A stretch of 64,000 nucleotides of DNA from Desulfurococcales archaeon (GTDB taxonomy: Archaea; Thermoproteota; Thermoprotei_A; Sulfolobales; NBVN01). The stretch covers positions 71,929-135,928 of the forward strand of contig JAGDWD010000007.1 in assembly GCA_023255955.1 (NCBI GenBank). The letters are read 5' to 3'. The position numbers and the translations under genes were made by a program. Within the stretch, counting starts at the first letter, position 1. Each line of letters starts with the position of its first letter. Of this stretch, positions 9,935 to 54,641 are shown one piece after another. A model generated the notes under the pieces. The model was not told the DNA's origin. It saw only the letters and a list, made by a program, of their open reading frames with translations, and did no database searches.

Positions 9935-10022
9935 TTAGGCTTAAAAGCACTGAGAGAATAAAATAGTCTTAGGTAGGTGTCCAGCATTTAGCTCCGAACA
10001 CTTAGAGATAACTAAAGATGAG

Positions 10023-11093
10023 TTGAAACAGCTGATAAAGGAGCTCAAGAAATGGAATGCTCATGCAACTACGCTCCTATCCCTCTATATCCCACCTGGT
10101 AGGCCTATAGGAGACATAGTGAACATACTTAGGCAGGAACTATCCATCACAGAGAACATCAAGCTGAAGAGGACTAGATCCAAGGTTCAGTTCGCGTTGG
10201 AGGCCGCTATAGATAGGCTACTGAAGATCCCGAAAGTCCCGAAGAACGGCCTTGTAGTGTTCGCTGGTGAGCATGACGAGACTGAAGATACCATCGTGAT
10301 AGTGTTTTCCCCTCCAGAACCTGTCAACATATTCTTCTATAGAACAGACAAGTACTTCCACACAGAGTTCCTGGAGAGTATGGTTGAGGAGAGCGATATC
10401 TACGGCCTCATAGTTATTGAGAGAGATGAAGCTACGATAGGGCTCCTCAAAGGTGGTGCCATAGTCGTACTTGATGAGCTTGAGGGATATATCCCTGGGA
10501 AGCATAGTAAGGGCGGGTGGTCCCAGAGAAGATATGATAGGATAATAGAGGAGATGGTCGAAGATTTCTACAAGAAAGTCGGGGAGAAAGCAAGTAGCTA
10601 CTTTATACCTCTCCTGGAGTCAGGTAGACTTAAGGGGATCCTAATCGGTGGTCCAGGATATTCTAAGCTTGATTTCGTAAAAGGTTCGTACCTTGACTAC
10701 CGCCTGCAGAAGTTAATAGTGGGAAGCCCTATAGACGTGAGTGCGCAGAGCGAGCCGGGACTTAGAGAGTTAGTGGAGAAAGCGAAGGACTACATCAAGG
10801 AGACGAAGTATCATAAAACTAAGGAGGTGCTCGAAGAATTCAAGTATCATCTAGCAAAGGACGATGGATTAGCAACTTACGGTGAGTCCGAGATATTGAA
10901 GGCTCTTGAACTCGGTGCGGTCGAAACCTTAATAGTAGTTGAGGATCACCCGAAGTTAGCAGAGTTGAAGAGTATTGCGGAGGCGCGGGGAGTTAAGCTA
11001 GTTGTTGTGAGTGAGGACTTCCTTGAGTACGGATGGCTTAAGAAGTCCTTTGGAGGTCTAGTAGCTATATTACGGTACCAGCTAATTAGCTAG
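10023..11093 (+). CDS. aRF1/eRF1-family protein with divergent catalytic and decoding motifs
   Basis: Architecture is aRF1 throughout (LLSLYIPPGRPIGD..., C-terminal GGLVAILRYQL). However, TENIKLKRTR replaces NIKS, FFYRTDKYF replaces YxCxxxF, and PGKHSKGGWSQRRYDR replaces GGQ. Confidence 0.8.
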   Translation: MKQLIKELKKWNAHATTLLSLYIPPGRPIGDIVNILRQELSITENIKLKRTRSKVQFALEAAIDRLLKIPKVPKNGLVVFAGEHDETEDTIVIVFSPPEPVNIFFYRTDKYFHTEFLESMVEESDIYGLIVIERDEATIGLLKGGAIVVLDELEGYIPGKHSKGGWSQRRYDRIIEEMVEDFYKKVGEKASSYFIPLLESGRLKGILIGGPGYSKLDFVKGSYLDYRLQKLIVGSPIDVSAQSEPGLRELVEKAKDYIKETKYHKTKEVLEEFKYHLAKDDGLATYGESEILKALELGAVETLIVVEDHPKLAELKSIAEARGVKLVVVSEDFLEYGWLKKSFGGLVAILRYQLIS

Positions 11094-11396
11094 TTAGCTA
11101 GGCTCCTCTCCACCCTCTCCTTCCTCACTACTCATCAGGTCTAGAAGGATCTCGTAGAACTCCTCCTTTTCTTGCTCTATCTCCTCCTGACTTCTAACTA
11201 CTCCACGACCCTCACTAACGATCGATGTGGTCTTCACCTTAGACTCAGTACTGGACTTGCCGGATAGTTTGTAGCCTGAGCCTGTCTTCGATGTTTCCTC
11301 GTAGCCACAGCTCGGACACTTATAAACATAGCCCTCATTTTTCTTCTGTGGCACCATAACCGTCCCACACTTAGGGCAAAACTTCGTGCCCACCAC
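11094..11396 (-). CDS. Zinc-ribbon protein (TFS/RpoM N-terminal-type ribbon) with an acidic C-terminal tail
   Basis: FCPKCGTVMVP...YKCPSCGYE is a C4 ribbon. The tail is EEIEQEKEEFYEILLDLMSSEEGEGGEEPS. There is no second ribbon. Confidence 0.6.
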   Translation of the reverse strand: MVGTKFCPKCGTVMVPQKKNEGYVYKCPSCGYEETSKTGSGYKLSGKSSTESKVKTTSIVSEGRGVVRSQEEIEQEKEEFYEILLDLMSSEEGEGGEEPS

Positions 11397-42822: not shown

Positions 42823-43534
42823 TATATTTGAGCAACTGAAGTAAAAGTTTCGCCCATGCTAACTTAGCTAGCTTATTCTTGATATTAATTAATGTGCCTG
42901 AAGGTTTTTCTAGCCTAGAGACTCTACCGAAGTCGAAGCCGTAAAGGTATACCCTACTAGCACCATAACTGAAGGCAAGATAGACTCCTCTATCCCCATC
43001 TGTAAAACCACCTGGGACATCTACCCTATGCGAACACCCGCACTGAGCAGTTCCGATAAGAAAACCCCGAACTTCAGGTACTAGCGATACTATCTTGTCG
43101 ATATTGTCCCCATGAGCGTGAACTACGTAGACTACGTCTCTATAGCCCAACATATCCCGAGTAATCCCATCTAGATCTGTAACCACGACATCGGGGATTA
43201 TACCCTCCCTCAAACACACCCCAAACGCGGCGTCTGCTGCTATTAAAACCTTCCCGGACTTGCTCGGACATCCCGATGTGAAAGCATCCCCAACGACGAT
43301 AGCGTCCCCACCTTCGAGGAGTTTAGATAGGTACCTACGTGACTCAAACACTAGTTCCATCCTAGTCGACAGTATAATGTCAAGAATTCGGCAAGAATAG
43401 TGATCCCTTTCCCTATCAAATCCTAGGTTAGCAATTATAGAGTCATAGAAGATCTCCCAGAAGAATCTATCCCTAACAGACACTACCCACCCCCAGGTCC
43501 TTAAGGTCCTTACATACAGTCTCAGCACACTCAA
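42773..43534 (-). CDS. mptE: 6-hydroxymethyl-7,8-dihydropterin pyrophosphokinase, MptE-like (DUF115)
   Basis: Motifs VVVTDLDGI, VVHAHGDNIDK and GGFTDGDRG are present. The true start is probably the GTG at 43483. Confidence 0.7.
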   Translation of the reverse strand: MSVLRLYVRTLRTWGWVVSVRDRFFWEIFYDSIIANLGFDRERDHYSCRILDIILSTRMELVFESRRYLSKLLEGGDAIVVGDAFTSGCPSKSGKVLIAADAAFGVCLREGIIPDVVVTDLDGITRDMLGYRDVVYVVHAHGDNIDKIVSLVPEVRGFLIGTAQCGCSHRVDVPGGFTDGDRGVYLAFSYGASRVYLYGFDFGRVSRLEKPSGTLINIKNKLAKLAWAKLLLQLLKYSGYRIECLEGGCKSWI

Positions 43535-44177
43535 CTAAATCACTGGATCCAAGTCTCCTAACCAATGAAATACTGTAGCTAAGCATCTCAATCCACCTTG
43601 AGAGCTCGGGGATTTCTCGGTAACCCGATGAAATGAAGTACCTTATCTTTGTGAGGTAAACTAAAGCCTCGATAAGCATGGAGTTAGCTCTACTATATGA
43701 GAAGTAACGACCTCTACCTTCATAAACACCGAGTACGGAGAGAATCACGGAGGCTCTCTGACCCTCTTCTACAATAAGTTTCGGGACTGCCTCAACATGC
43801 ATATCTACGTCAGCATCCAATACGTAGAAACCACTATTCCGACCACTTACGTATCTAAGCTTAAACGGTCTTAAAACAACGTCGCAGAATATTAATGCGT
43901 TATGGGTGAACAGCAGAGAAACTGGGGAACCCGCCTTTATGTTTCTGTATGTTCGGCTATCGATATAGGGGAATATAGCGAGGCCCTCATTGAGTAAGCG
44001 GACTCCCATAGCCGCAGCATGAGGTTTTTCAGCCTCATCTACAGTGATCACTATAGCTTCATGATGCCCATATCTTAGGGCATCCCTTAGCTTACTGAGA
44101 TATTCTGTATCCACATCCACAACGCGTTCTCGGTTGTCAGTAGATATTTCAACCACCAGCCGCGTAGAGGATCCCAC
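43473..44177 (-). CDS. DUF447-family protein (FMN-binding split-barrel-like, found in pterin biosynthesis neighbourhoods)
   Basis: The frame was trimmed to GTG 44177 because the upstream part of track ORF 43473-44333 is antisense to tRNA-Arg. The remaining ~234 aa look coding. Confidence 0.55.
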   Translation of the reverse strand: MGSSTRLVVEISTDNRERVVDVDTEYLSKLRDALRYGHHEAIVITVDEAEKPHAAAMGVRLLNEGLAIFPYIDSRTYRNIKAGSPVSLLFTHNALIFCDVVLRPFKLRYVSGRNSGFYVLDADVDMHVEAVPKLIVEEGQRASVILSVLGVYEGRGRYFSYSRANSMLIEALVYLTKIRYFISSGYREIPELSRWIEMLSYSISLVRRLGSSDLVECAETVCKDLKDLGVGSVC

Positions 44178-44218
44178 TAAATCACTTAAAAACTCTTTCT
44201 GAGTATAGCTCTTGGAGT

Positions 44219-44327
<109 letters not shown>

Positions 44328-44329
44328 CA

Positions 44330-44773
44330 TCATTTATAAAGTAGTTTCCTCAAAGTCGGTGAGTCATCCTGCAGTAGCAGCTCGAGAGCTACTGCCTCAA
44401 TAAGTTCACAGTCTACTTCCTCACTTCTGAGTTTTCCTTGGGATATAGCTAAGTCGAGAGCTACTAGGTGGTAACAAGTTCCCTTACTTCTCCTCATTAC
44501 TACCCCTATCTCAAAGTCTTTACAGCTACAGAAGGTCCTCGGTAGCATGATGTAGCACCTACTCTTCCCGAGGAATACGTAGAGCTCTGAAACTATCCTC
44601 CCACTGCTTCTGCAGTATAACCTCAGTAACCGATTCTCTTTTAAAGCCTCTAAAGCTTTCTCAGGAGGTTTCTCGAGGCTGGTGACAACGCTTTTATCTA
44701 CTGACCTCTTATCTAACCTCTCTATCTGCTCCCTATCTGCAACTCCTACTACCATAGCTCGAAACTTCTCCAT
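44330..44773 (-). CDS. SWIM zinc-finger-like protein
   Basis: CSCKDFEIGVVMRRSKGTCYHLVAL fits the SWIM signature CxCxnCxH. The product is 147 aa. Confidence 0.5.
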   Translation of the reverse strand: MEKFRAMVVGVADREQIERLDKRSVDKSVVTSLEKPPEKALEALKENRLLRLYCRSSGRIVSELYVFLGKSRCYIMLPRTFCSCKDFEIGVVMRRSKGTCYHLVALDLAISQGKLRSEEVDCELIEAVALELLLQDDSPTLRKLLYK

Positions 44774-50913: not shown

Positions 50914-51004
50914 GGGGCCGTCGTCTAGCTTGGCTAGGATGCCAGCCTGGGGACAACCCCCGCCAGTACGCTGGTGGTCCCGGGTTCAAATCCCGGCGGC
51001 CCCA
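50914..51004 (+). tRNA. tRNA-Pro (anticodon GGG) with a 16-nt intron after position 37; no encoded CCA
   Basis: GGGGCCGTCGTCTAGCTTGGCTAGGATGCCAGCCTGGGG, then the intron ACAACCCCCGCCAGTA, then CGCTGGTGGTCCCGGGTTCAAATCCCGGCGGCCCCA. Confidence 0.9.
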
Positions 51005-54525: not shown

Positions 54526-54641
54526 TGGTGCGGGGGGTGGGATTCGAACCCACGCAGGCCTACGCCATCGGGTCTCTCACCGCGTATCTGCTGGAAGCAG
54601 TCTTAAGCCCGACCCCTTTGACCTGGCTCGGGCACCCCCGC
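54526..54641 (-). tRNA. tRNA-Leu (anticodon UAA) with a 28-nt intron after position 37; CCA encoded
   Basis: The reverse complement is GCGGGGGTGCCCGAGCCAGGTCAAAGGGGTCGGGCTTAAG, then the intron ACTGCTTCCAGCAGATACGCGGTGAGAG, then ACCCGATGGCGTAGGCCTGCGTGGGTTCGAATCCCACCCCCCGCACCA. Confidence 0.9.

What the first reader, a model, noticed from the sequence alone, without database searches (positions are those of the whole stretch)
10023..11093. aRF1-type release factor homologue with GGQ, NIKS and YxCxxxF all altered
The protein is unmistakably aRF1/eRF1-like over its whole length. However, the three motifs that define class I release-factor function are all changed. The peptidyl-tRNA hydrolysis motif reads KHSKGGWSQRRYDR, so GGQ becomes GGW (codon TGG at 10519-10521). 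The stop-codon recognition motif reads TENIKLKRTR, so NIKS becomes NIKL. The third motif reads FFYRTDKYF, so the Cys of YxCxxxF becomes Thr. The glutamine of GGQ is universally conserved in RF1/RF2/eRF1/aRF1 and is required for peptide release. This protein is therefore either a release-inactive paralogue or an unprecedented catalytic variant. A paralogue might bind the ribosome in rescue or quality control, analogous to Pelota/Dom34, which derive from the same fold. The reading frame also stays open and aRF1-like (SSEHLEITKDE) for 23 codons upstream of the TTG start, with no canonical start codon there. The gene ends 0 nt from the convergent zinc-ribbon gene (stops at 11091-11093 and 11094-11096).
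Basis: partly seen in the sequence, partly recalled or inferred. Interest (0 to 1): 0.68.

Follow-up and report, generated by a model that had tools for sequence, protein, structure and literature searches.

The report
Archaeal release factor: GGW, frameshifted start
This is the organism's ordinary-looking translation termination factor (aRF1), except that the supposedly universal catalytic glutamine (GGQ) is a tryptophan in a whole clade of hot-spring archaea, and the gene seems to need a +1 ribosomal frameshift at an early stop codon to be expressed, as bacterial RF2 does.

Summary
The GGW is real. The same codon is present in 14 species genomes, in Zestosphaera tikiterensis and in 39 database protein clusters. 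NIKL and YxT are not alterations: every Desulfurococcales/Sulfolobales aRF1 examined has them, including the crystallised Aeropyrum pernix protein. The GGW proteins form one clade inside Desulfurococcaceae aRF1 and sit at the same chromosomal position as GGQ genes of sister lineages. They differ from 81 GGQ relatives at only one clade-wide diagnostic column, and dN/dS is 0.03-0.06. No second copy was found, but whole genomes could not be scanned. The best reading is an orthologous, working release factor with a natural Q-to-W replacement, not a Pelota-like paralogue. Among 150 diverse aRF1 representatives, 24 have W, F, M, A or E at this position, scattered over the tree. The open frame upstream of the TTG is explained by a mini-ORF, GTG TCC AGC ATT TAG C (9977-9992), with aRF1 in the +1 frame. 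The same ATG/GTG-N-NUU-UAG/UGA layout occurs in 54 of 64 aRF1 loci, including Saccharolobus islandicus (CTT TGA C). It occurs upstream of the first in-frame start in none of 236 control frames. I found no literature on either feature.

The parts
9941..9946 (+). TTAAAA, a candidate archaeal TATA box (tentative)
   Evidence: The same CTTAAAAG is conserved upstream in L001-L004, L006 and L008. There it begins 29 nt before the mini-ORF GTG, the usual TATA-to-start distance. In the window the distance is 36 nt, and a second AT-rich box lies at 9958-9964. Inference only; no transcript data.
9977..9991 (+). Mini-ORF GTG TCC AGC ATT TAG (M-S-S-I-stop), in the frame one base upstream of aRF1 (aRF1 is its +1 frame)
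   Evidence: It is preceded by an in-frame TAG at 9974-9976, so GTG is its only possible start. The same 3-4 codon ORF ending in NTT TAG/TGA occurs in 54 of 64 aRF1 loci.
9986..9992 (+). Proposed +1 shift site A_TTT_AGC / ATT_TAG_C. The P-site tRNA would slip from AUU to UUU, and AGC (Ser) would then be read.
   Evidence: TTT and the stop codon are conserved, third positions included, across loci that are otherwise saturated at synonymous sites. The heptamers are NTT TAG Y or CTT TGA N. None of 236 control frames has the motif upstream of the first in-frame start.
9990..11093 (+). aRF1 coding frame after the proposed shift. The restored product is MSSI+SSEHLEITKDEL..., 371 aa.
   Evidence: Restored residues 6-151 align with residues 7-152 of the 373-aa A. 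pernix aRF1 (3agk). Over 22 codons downstream of the shift site, variable sites by codon position 1/2/3 are 11/8/18, the pattern of coding sequence.
10023..10025 (+). TTG, the first canonical in-frame start (mechanical ORF start). It is probably an internal Leu codon.
   Evidence: In orthologues the first in-frame canonical start lies 5 to 90 codons downstream of the shift site; at 90 codons it is beyond the NIKL motif. Database annotations of the N-terminus disagree with one another.
10155..10166 (+). NIKL, the crenarchaeal form of the NIKS stop-codon recognition motif
   Evidence: It is identical in GGQ relatives, including A. pernix 3agk.
10338..10358 (+). YRTDKYF, the crenarchaeal form (Y-x-T-x-x-x-F) of YxCxxxF
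   Evidence: It is present in all 54 related loci, whether GGQ or GGW.
10512..10520 (+). GGC GGG TGG = G164 G165 W166, in place of the GGQ peptidyl-tRNA hydrolysis motif
   Evidence: It is the only column that separates 40 GGW sequences from 81 GGQ/GGK sequences at the 90%/15% threshold.

Best explanation
The gene is the genome's orthologous class I release factor aRF1, very probably its only one. It belongs to a Desulfurococcaceae lineage (Zestosphaera, Ca. Zestomicrobium and uncultured relatives) in which the glutamine of the GGQ loop was replaced by tryptophan.

I propose that it still terminates translation. Stop codons are read by the unchanged N domain (NIKL, YxT). The M-domain loop enters the peptidyl-transferase centre. 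Hydrolysis is promoted by the loop backbone, as established for bacterial RFs. The indole fills the hydrophobic pocket (A2451/A2452/U2506 in E. coli numbering) that normally packs the N5-methylated Gln side chain. If so, Mtq2 methylation would be unnecessary.

Expression is proposed to start at the mini-ORF GTG (9977). It would need a +1 ribosomal frameshift at AUU UAG C (9986-9992). Frameshifting competes with aRF1-dependent termination at that UAG, so this would be an autoregulatory loop like the one in bacterial prfB.

Shown here: conservation, orthology, purifying selection and the conserved recoding architecture. Inferred: catalytic competence, the packing role of Trp, loss of the need for methylation, and the frameshift and its regulatory role.
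For: GGW is real and ancient.
- TGG is present in 14 GTDB species genomes plus Z. tikiterensis.
- It is present in 39 of the top 120 protein clusters, drawn from NCBI, JGI, ENA and Logan.
- With the Q/W column removed, GGW plus one GGQ sequence (P0031) form a clade in 174 of 200 NJ bootstraps.

Orthology.
- GGW loci L009 and L013 share their flanking gene families with GGQ loci L012, L015 and L020.
- The order FeoB-aRF1-aIF5B is the same in GGW genomes (L059, L064) and in the GGQ contig L058.

Constraint.
- Q166W is the only diagnostic column at the 90%/15% threshold.
- 87 of 97 columns that are at least 97% conserved among GGQ proteins are kept in the GGW clade; the rest are conservative changes in subsets.
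- dN/dS is 0.03-0.06, against a median of 0.10 for GGQ pairs.

Need for a release factor and absence of a second copy.
- All three stop codons are used in the window: TAG 22, TAA 19, TGA 9.
- No genome gave two aRF1 loci.
- There is no second aRF1 or Pelota in the window or in any fetched flank.
- Among hits of at least 57% identity there is no set of GGQ sequences mirroring the GGW clade.

Plausibility of catalysis.
- The Gln backbone amide is the catalytic element, and only Pro abolishes release; the side chain provides packing (PMC6742477 and PMC4691834).
- Methylation adds van der Waals contacts with U2506, A2451 and A2452 (PMC5799190).
- Gln substitutions in human eRF1 do not abolish activity (Seit-Nebi 2000, as cited in PMC12440015).
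- Q to W, F or M recurs independently in other aRF1 lineages.

Frameshift.
-, as set out in the full report.
Against: - No whole genome of a GGW organism could be scanned. A divergent second aRF1 (below about 57% identity) or another GGQ-bearing hydrolase is therefore not excluded. The genome scan relied on six peptide patterns and is not exhaustive.
- In yeast and E. coli, changes to the GGQ glutamine are reported as lethal or destabilising (PMC12440015).
- No biochemical data exist for Trp at this position.
- P0031 (GGQ) falls at the base of, or inside, the GGW clade. The history therefore involves either a reversal or more than one gain, and the NJ trees cannot resolve which.
- For the frameshift there are no transcript, proteomic or ribosome-profiling data.
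- The G-rich tract abuts or overlaps the mini-ORF start, which is atypical spacing for Shine-Dalgarno-led initiation.
- Four GGW genomes (L010, L011, L014, L049) have an in-frame GTG instead and need no frameshift.
Confidence: 0.68

Rival explanations
1. It is a release-inactive aRF1 paralogue. It would bind ribosomes at stop codons or stalls without hydrolysing peptidyl-tRNA (rescue, quality control or regulation), while a canonical GGQ aRF1 elsewhere in the genome does the termination.
For: The Gln of GGQ is described as universally conserved and is methylated in all three domains (PMC6144793). GGQ changes are poorly tolerated in yeast. Whole genomes of GGW organisms could not be searched, and the scan is limited to six peptide patterns.
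Against: - The gene occupies the ancestral aRF1 position, between the same neighbours as GGQ orthologues.
- The clade-wide differences are limited to one column, with no relaxation of selection and no long branch.
- The stop-codon recognition motifs and the C domain are intact.
- No genome yielded two loci, and no parallel GGQ clade exists among the top hits.
- The pelota model is far below its cutoff.
- The window's subclade and Z. tikiterensis keep the same stop-codon-dependent mini-ORF as sole-copy GGQ genes in complete genomes.
Confidence: 0.15
2. The TGG is a sequencing or assembly error, or this is a decaying pseudogene.
For: None beyond the prior expectation of CAG or CAA at this position.
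Against: The same codon occurs in 15 or more independent assemblies and 39 protein clusters from different sources. TGG is two substitutions away from CAG. The full-length frame is intact, and dN/dS is about 0.05.
Confidence: 0.01
3. There is no frameshift. Translation starts at the in-frame TTG (10023) or at a non-canonical in-frame codon such as ATA 10008 (the codon NCBI annotates as an ATT start in orthologues). The upstream conservation would then reflect a promoter or leader element.
For: Database annotations use such starts. The window does have a TTG only 12 codons after the site. The exact transcription start is unknown. Four Zestosphaera-like genomes use an in-frame GTG.
Against: - The region between the site and the TTG evolves as coding sequence in the aRF1 frame: variable sites 11/8/18 by codon position.
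- It aligns with the N-terminal residues of A. pernix, Halobacterium and eukaryotic factors.
- In orthologues the first canonical in-frame start can be 42-90 codons downstream, which would delete part of the N domain, including NIKL.
- A start codon is always in frame with the stop two to four codons later, and NTT-stop is invariant.
- The motif lies upstream of the first in-frame start in 0 of 236 control frames, against 53 of 64 aRF1 frames that carry it.
- Relatives with ordinary starts (Acidilobales MEGESAFSEY..., P0044 MFSEY...) encode the same N-terminal peptide.
Confidence: 0.12
4. The frame is restored by transcriptional slippage (loss of one U in a U-run), not by ribosomal frameshifting.
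For: Many Desulfurococcaceae sites contain five consecutive T (GGT TTT TAG C).
Against: The window (ATT TAG C), Ignisphaera (CCT ATT TAG T), D. amylolyticus (CTT TAG C) and the Sulfolobaceae (CTT TGA C) have only three T. What is conserved is NUU followed by a stop codon, in phase with a start codon.
Confidence: 0.04

Closest known systems
Canonical crenarchaeal aRF1 (Aeropyrum pernix aRF1, PDB 3agk/3vmf)
   Same: There is a full-length, gap-free alignment (E 3e-123). It has the same three domains, the same NIKL and Y-x-T-x-x-x-F motifs, the same KxxKGG-SQRR loop context and the same C-terminal GILRY-like tail.
   Different: The loop has Trp instead of Gln. A. pernix-like and Pyrodictiaceae genes have an ordinary in-frame start, not the mini-ORF plus stop codon.
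Bacterial prfB (RF2) programmed +1 frameshift, CUU UGA C with an upstream Shine-Dalgarno-like element
   Same: A release-factor gene is interrupted near its 5' end by an in-frame stop codon directly after an NUU codon, so the P-site tRNA can re-pair with UUU. The main frame is at +1. There is a G-rich, SD-like tract upstream and no downstream RNA structure. Sulfolobaceae use the identical heptamer CTT TGA C.
   Different: The protein family is unrelated (aRF1/eRF1 fold). ORF0 is only 3-4 codons, against about 25 in E. coli. The stop is mostly UAG. The G-rich tract lies 6 nt, not 3 nt, from the shift codon and abuts the start codon. aRF1 reads all three stop codons, so the choice of stop is not factor-specific. 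The frameshift is untested experimentally.
Mimivirus R726 / Megavirus mg280 eRF1-type release factors (frameshift plus readthrough)
   Same: An eRF1/aRF1-family gene whose expression needs recoding at internal stop codons, interpreted as autoregulation (PMC3521657).
   Different: The viral genes need two recoding events deep inside the coding region. That paper states that such signals are absent from archaeal and eukaryotic homologues, which the present loci appear to contradict.
Pelota / Dom34
   Same: The overall eRF1-like fold of the M and C domains is shared (weak matches).
   Different: Pelota lacks NIKS and GGQ-type loops altogether and has a different N domain. The query scores 89 bits against the pelota cutoff of 178, but 434 bits against the aRF1 cutoff of 235.
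Laboratory mutants of the GGQ glutamine (RF1/RF2 Q-to-X, human eRF1 Q185X)
   Same: They support the view that the side chain is not the catalytic group: only Pro abolishes release, and other residues keep partial activity.
   Different: Those are engineered and usually deleterious in vivo. Here Trp is fixed and conserved in a natural clade, and W, F or M recurs in other lineages.

Membership tests
aRF1 (archaeal class I release factor, TIGR03676 equivalog) | Whole-protein score above the curated equivalog cutoff | tested here: met
   434 bits against a cutoff of 234.7.
aRF1 (archaeal class I release factor, TIGR03676 equivalog) | Three-domain architecture eRF1_1 / eRF1_2 / eRF1_3 | tested here: met
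   All three Pfam domains are above their cutoffs and cover residues 3-354. The alignment to 3agk is collinear.
aRF1 (archaeal class I release factor, TIGR03676 equivalog) | NIKS-type stop-codon recognition loop | tested here: met
   NIKL, identical to the crenarchaeal norm, including the crystallised A. pernix aRF1.
aRF1 (archaeal class I release factor, TIGR03676 equivalog) | YxCxxxF motif | tested here: met
   It is present in the lineage form Y-R-T-D-K-Y-F. Thr replaces Cys in all 54 related loci and in 3agk, so this is not specific to this protein.
aRF1 (archaeal class I release factor, TIGR03676 equivalog) | GGQ tripeptide at the tip of the M domain | tested here: not met
   GGW (TGG 10518-10520), conserved in the whole clade. 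For this reason I file it as a variant of aRF1, not as a canonical member.
aRF1 (archaeal class I release factor, TIGR03676 equivalog) | Orthology: same genomic position and same phylogenetic place as canonical aRF1 | tested here: met
   Shared flanking gene families and the FeoB-aRF1-aIF5B order are found in both GGQ and GGW genomes. The clade is nested in Desulfurococcaceae aRF1.
aRF1 (archaeal class I release factor, TIGR03676 equivalog) | Only class I release factor of the genome | tested here: inconclusive
   No genome gave two loci, and there is no second copy in the window or flanks. Complete genomes could not be scanned.
aRF1 (archaeal class I release factor, TIGR03676 equivalog) | Stop-codon-dependent peptidyl-tRNA hydrolysis with aEF1-alpha | not testable with these tools
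   This needs an in vitro release assay.
prfB-type autoregulatory +1 programmed frameshift | In-frame stop codon early in ORF0, with the main ORF in the +1 frame and no in-frame start of its own | tested here: met
   GTG TCC AGC ATT TAG, with aRF1 at +1. There is no ATG, GTG or TTG in the aRF1 frame between TGA 9951 and TTG 10023.
prfB-type autoregulatory +1 programmed frameshift | Slippery NUU U directly before the stop, allowing P-site re-pairing | tested here: met
   ATT T in the window; TTT T, CTT T and GTT T in relatives. This is invariant in 54 of 64 loci.
prfB-type autoregulatory +1 programmed frameshift | Phylogenetic conservation of the signal beyond chance | tested here: met
   53 of 64 aRF1 frames carry the motif. 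Among 236 control frames, 3 carry it within the first 50 codons, and none carries it upstream of the first in-frame start.
prfB-type autoregulatory +1 programmed frameshift | Upstream Shine-Dalgarno-like stimulator at short spacing | tested here: inconclusive
   A G-rich GGTG / GAGG(T/G) tract lies 6 nt upstream of the shift codon in both mini-ORF types. It overlaps or abuts the start codon, so its role is unclear.
prfB-type autoregulatory +1 programmed frameshift | Trans-frame protein product, and dependence of its yield on release-factor level | not testable with these tools
   This needs proteomics, ribosome profiling or reporters.
Pelota / Dom34 (TIGR00111) | Score above the curated cutoff; Pelota-type N domain; no NIKS or GGQ loops | tested here: not met
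   89.3 bits against a cutoff of 177.65, matching only the M and C domains. The N domain is eRF1_1 with NIKL.

The most novel reading that the evidence does not exclude
Two linked claims. (1) The 'universally conserved' catalytic-loop glutamine of class I release factors is dispensable in nature. In several archaeal lineages the sole aRF1 carries Trp, Phe or Met instead. These bulky hydrophobic side chains would mimic N5-methyl-glutamine packing in the peptidyl-transferase centre and would make the Mtq2 methyltransferase unnecessary. (2) Many Thermoprotei, including the genetic model Saccharolobus islandicus, express aRF1 through a +1 ribosomal frameshift at a stop codon three or four codons into the message. 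That would be an autoregulatory circuit that evolved convergently with bacterial prfB and has so far been thought absent from archaea.
Probability: 0.5. Interest if true: 0.9.

Novelty: new variant of a known kind. Interest (0 to 1): 0.82.

Why it matters
GGQ is the one motif shared by all class I release factors, and reviews treat its glutamine and that residue's methylation as universal. A natural, conserved GGW in an orthologous aRF1 would be a ready-made test of what the side chain does: water selection, packing or methyl-dependent positioning. The recurrence of GGW, GGF and GGM elsewhere strengthens this. There is a representative in co-culture (Zestosphaera tikiterensis).

The apparent +1 frameshift would be the first cellular +1 programmed frameshift in Archaea. 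It would also be a striking convergence with prfB, down to the CUU UGA C heptamer in Sulfolobaceae, and it is directly testable in S. islandicus.

In practice, it also means that aRF1 N-termini are mis-annotated in dozens of archaeal genomes.

Tried and rejected
- **Sequencing error:** rejected by conservation.
- **Recoding of TGG:** rejected. The conserved Trp residues of aRF1 (KKW, GWLKK) are also encoded by TGG.
- **Intramolecular compensation:** none found. No other clade-wide diagnostic column exists; the next best candidates (E177, K189) are also common in GGQ sequences.
- **Synteny using the window's own neighbours** (MoeA, small Mo-binding-like protein, RPB9-type zinc ribbon, RimK): this is conserved only in the window's subclade, L001-L008. 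I therefore switched to all-against-all gene families.
- **Downstream RNA structure as a frameshift stimulator:** RNAalifold predicts no pairs.
- **Mtq2 (NPPY methyltransferase) in the window or loci:** none present, so co-loss could not be tested.
- **rRNA in the window, to inspect peptidyl-transferase-centre nucleotides:** none, only tRNAs.
- **Taxonomy of the other non-Q representatives:** The listing of cluster members returned no organism names.
- **Second aRF1 or Pelota:** none in the window or in any flank.
- **Literature:** ten full-text searches and the main recoding reviews found no report of natural GGW, GGF or GGM aRF1, or of aRF1 frameshifting. Subscription-only papers were not searchable.
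- **Structure prediction:** not run. The 65%-identical crystal structure already fixes the fold, and the tool returns no coordinates.
Full report
**Observation**

The ORF at 10023-11093 (+) encodes a 356-aa protein from a TTG. It is a full-length aRF1. NCBIfam TIGR03676 scores 434 bits against a cutoff of 234.7, and Pfam finds eRF1_1, eRF1_2 and eRF1_3. The best solved relative is Aeropyrum pernix aRF1, 3agk, with E 3e-123 and a gap-free alignment.

The loop reads KHSKGGWSQRRYDR. NIKL (10155-10166) and YRTDKYF (10338-10358) are present.

These two motifs are not alterations. The canonical, crystallised A. pernix protein reads TDNIKLKRTR and YYRTDKRF. All 54 related species genomes have Y-R-T-D-K, and NIKL is found wherever the motif was matched. 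So one of the three claimed changes is real.

**GGW is a clade character**

A search of 5.8 billion proteins gave 120 top hits. Of these, 39 have GGW, 80 have GGQ and one has GGK. The GGW hits range from 91% down to about 61% identity to the window protein. They come from NCBI MAGs, JGI, ENA and Logan assemblies.

A scan of one genome per GTDB species returned 54 loci. Fourteen have GGW, always as TGG. Zestosphaera tikiterensis, which grows in co-culture, has it too, as does Candidatus Zestomicrobium (L049). NCBI places both genera in Desulfurococcaceae.

In NJ trees the GGW sequences form one group inside the Desulfurococcaceae aRF1. With the Q/W column removed, GGW plus one GGQ sequence (P0031) form a clade in 174 of 200 bootstraps. 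GGW alone forms a clade in only 9. P0031 is 75% identical to its nearest GGW sequence and 71% to its nearest GGQ sequence, so it sits at or near the base. Whether this means a reversal or more than one gain is unresolved.

**Orthologue or paralogue**

*Position.* GGW loci L009 and L013 share their immediate neighbours with GGQ loci L012, L015 and L020. In Z. tikiterensis (L059) and in P0021's contig (L064), both GGW, the order is FeoB-aRF1-aIF5B followed by L24e, S28e and L7Ae. The GGQ contig of P0031 (L058) has the same FeoB-aRF1-aIF5B-NDK order, and its FeoB fragment is 64% identical.

*Constraint.* Q166W is the only alignment column in which the 40 GGW sequences agree (at least 90%) and the 81 others differ (at most 15%). 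Of 97 columns that are at least 97% conserved among GGQ proteins, 87 are kept in the GGW clade. The remaining ones are D/E, V/T, G/S, A/S or K/N changes in subsets. dN/dS within the GGW clade is 0.03-0.06; the median for GGQ pairs is 0.10.

*Copy number.* No assembly appears twice among the 54 loci. No second aRF1 or Pelota lies in the 64-kb window or in any fetched flank. Among hits of at least about 57% identity there is no second set of GGQ sequences that mirrors the GGW clade, which a retained paralogue would produce.

*Need.* The window uses all three stop codons: TAG 22, TAA 19, TGA 9.

Together these results make a Pelota-like inactive paralogue unlikely. A divergent second factor is not excluded, because I could not scan whole genomes.

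**Could GGW work?**

From the literature: peptidyl-tRNA hydrolysis is promoted by the backbone amide of the Gln, and only Pro abolishes release. The side chain contributes packing and selection of the nucleophile (PMC6742477 and PMC4691834). N5-methylation increases van der Waals contacts with U2506, A2451 and A2452 and raises kcat about tenfold (PMC5799190 and PMC4691834). [quoted passage not shown] Archaeal aRF1 is methylated by Mtq2, which is said to be present in all archaea (PMC6144793).

My inference is that a Trp side chain can occupy the same hydrophobic pocket without methylation.

An exhaustive phmmer search of 1.84 billion cluster representatives supports the idea that bulky hydrophobic residues are acceptable. 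Among the best 150 aRF1-like representatives, the residue at this position is Q in 123, W in 11, F in 6, M in 4, A in 2 and E in 1. The ranking is slightly biased towards W, because the query itself has W.

In a tree of the representatives of ordinary length, the non-Q sequences are scattered, each next to GGQ sequences. Most keep NIKS and YxCxxxF. One of them (P0254, GGW) lies between diphthamide synthase and TruD in an unrelated MAG. W, F and M need two or three nucleotide changes from CAA or CAG, so this is selection, not noise. I could not test whether those other lineages have a second GGQ copy.

**The missing start codon**

The aRF1 frame is open from 9954, after TGA 9951-9953, and has no ATG, GTG or TTG before the TTG at 10023. 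This stretch is conserved at the protein level in relatives (FSSEHLEITKDEL against FSSENLEISKEEL, FSEYRVSKEEL and AFSYSEEKIEAL). It evolves like coding sequence: variable sites by codon position are 11, 8 and 18.

In the frame from which aRF1 is +1 there is a mini-ORF, GTG TCC AGC ATT TAG (9977-9991). It is bounded upstream by TAG 9974-9976. The aRF1 frame reads A TTT AGC across its end. A +1 slip of the P-site tRNA from AUU to UUU would bring AGC into the A site. The product would be MSSI-SSEHLEITKDEL..., 371 aa. Its residues 6-151 align with residues 7-152 of the 373-aa A. pernix protein.

A systematic search for [ATG/GTG/TTG]-(1 to 3 codons)-NTT-[stop], with an aRF1 frame of more than 300 codons at +1, found the layout in 54 of 64 sequences:

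| Site | Organisms |
|---|---|
| ATG GGY TTT TAG C | Thermogladius complete genomes |
| ATG GGT TTT TAG C | Staphylothermus MAGs |
| ATG AGC CTT TAG C | Desulfurococcus amylolyticus |
| ATG CCT ATT TAG T | Ignisphaera |
| GTG GGT CAT ATT TAG C | Z. tikiterensis |
| ATG AGT CTT TGA C | Saccharolobus islandicus, Metallosphaera, Ca. Aramenus |
| ATG AGT CTT TGA G | Sulfodiicoccus |

In many of these genes the first canonical in-frame start lies 40-90 codons downstream. That would delete part of the N domain and, in L007, the NIKL motif. Database N-termini are accordingly inconsistent.

As a control I examined 236 other open frames of at least 300 codons in the same DNA. Three have the motif within the first 50 codons, and none has it upstream of the first in-frame start. 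Among the 64 aRF1 frames, 53 carry it.

The exceptions are informative:
- Pyrodictiaceae-like loci and Hyperthermus have ordinary starts.
- Four Zestosphaera-like genomes have an in-frame GTG three codons before TTT AGC.
- Acidilobales and some others encode the same peptide (…AFSEY…, MFSEY…) from a normal ATG.

This is how prfB behaves in bacteria that have lost the frameshift.

No conserved RNA structure follows the site. A G-rich GGTG/GAGG tract lies 6 nt upstream of the shift codon. U-runs are too short in most lineages for transcriptional slippage.

**Known or new?**

A 2012 paper on giant-virus release factors states that such autoregulatory recoding is absent from archaeal and eukaryotic homologues (PMC3521657). 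The 2016 frameshifting compendium and a 2021 review of archaeal recoding list only fucA1 (-1), some viral cases and magnesium chelatase (PMC5009743 and PMC8211752). A 2025 survey of prfB does not mention archaea. Searches for GGW, GGF or GGM together with release factor or aRF1 returned nothing relevant. Searches for aRF1 frameshifting in Sulfolobales and for Zestosphaera with release factor also returned nothing relevant. The searchable library excludes most subscription journals, so I cannot claim certainty.

**Link between the two features**

The window's subclade and Z. tikiterensis have both GGW and the stop-codon-dependent mini-ORF. If the circuit works as in prfB, it senses termination efficiency at UAG. 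Its retention in GGW genomes fits GGW aRF1 being the factor that terminates there. This is inference.

**Verdict**

It is mistaken for NIKL and YxT. The best-supported reading is an orthologous, functional aRF1 variant. The paralogue reading remains possible at roughly 15%. Both the GGW variant (with the wider W/F/M pattern) and the proposed +1 frameshift are new variants of known kinds, and both are experimentally tractable.

Noticed in passing
window 9977-9992; also L001-L064 (e.g. L060:1464-1476 S. islandicus, L057:2964-2976 D. amylolyticus, L059:5976-5991 Z. tikiterensis): A conserved mini-ORF that ends in NUU-UAG/UGA, with aRF1 in the +1 frame. This looks like a prfB-like programmed +1 frameshift. 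It is present in 54 of 64 Desulfurococcales/Sulfolobales aRF1 loci and upstream of the first in-frame start in none of 236 control frames.
   Followed up: yes
proteins P0209-P0357, e.g. P0254 = L065:8001-9197: Among 150 diverse aRF1 representatives, the GGQ glutamine is replaced by W (11), F (6), M (4), A (2) or E (1). In a tree of the ordinary-length sequences these are scattered, and most keep NIKS and YxCxxxF. Whether these genomes also hold a GGQ copy is unknown.
   Followed up: partly
proteins P0246, P0256, P0259, P0273, P0305 and about 30 further representatives: Inteins (Intein_splicing plus LAGLIDADG, some with an HTH domain) are inserted in aRF1 exactly after GG(Q/W/F/M), before the Ser of GGQS. 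They are common in metagenomic aRF1 sequences of 500-970 aa.
   Followed up: partly
L058:899-1945 (P0031): A GGQ aRF1 that groups with, or inside, the GGW clade and has the same FeoB-aRF1-aIF5B synteny. This implies either a W-to-Q reversal (two nucleotide changes) or several independent gains of W.
   Followed up: partly
protein P0068: A single GGK variant (one nucleotide from CAG) lies within a cluster of near-identical GGQ sequences. It may be a sequencing error or a rare allele.
   Followed up: no
window 10521-10523 and the same codon in L001-L054: The Ser after GG(Q/W) is encoded by TCN in the GGW clade and in its nearest GGQ sisters, among a few others, but by AGY in most other Desulfurococcaceae. 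That is a switch between the two Ser codon families next to the changed residue.
   Followed up: no
window 44219-44324, 50914-51004, 54529-54641: Three tRNA matches of 91-113 nt were found by Rfam but not by ARAGORN. They are probably intron-containing crenarchaeal tRNAs. One (44219-44324) overlaps the mechanical ORF 43473-44333.
   Followed up: no
L059:7173-9995: In Z. tikiterensis the aIF5B gene directly downstream of aRF1 carries an intein (940 aa, against about 610 aa in L058 and L064).
   Followed up: no
database entries P0002, P0009, P0116, P0118, P0130, P0143: Public annotations start aRF1 at different downstream codons, including an ATT called as Met. N-termini differ by up to about 25 residues between close relatives, which is consistent with a mis-modelled recoded start.
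   Followed up: partly
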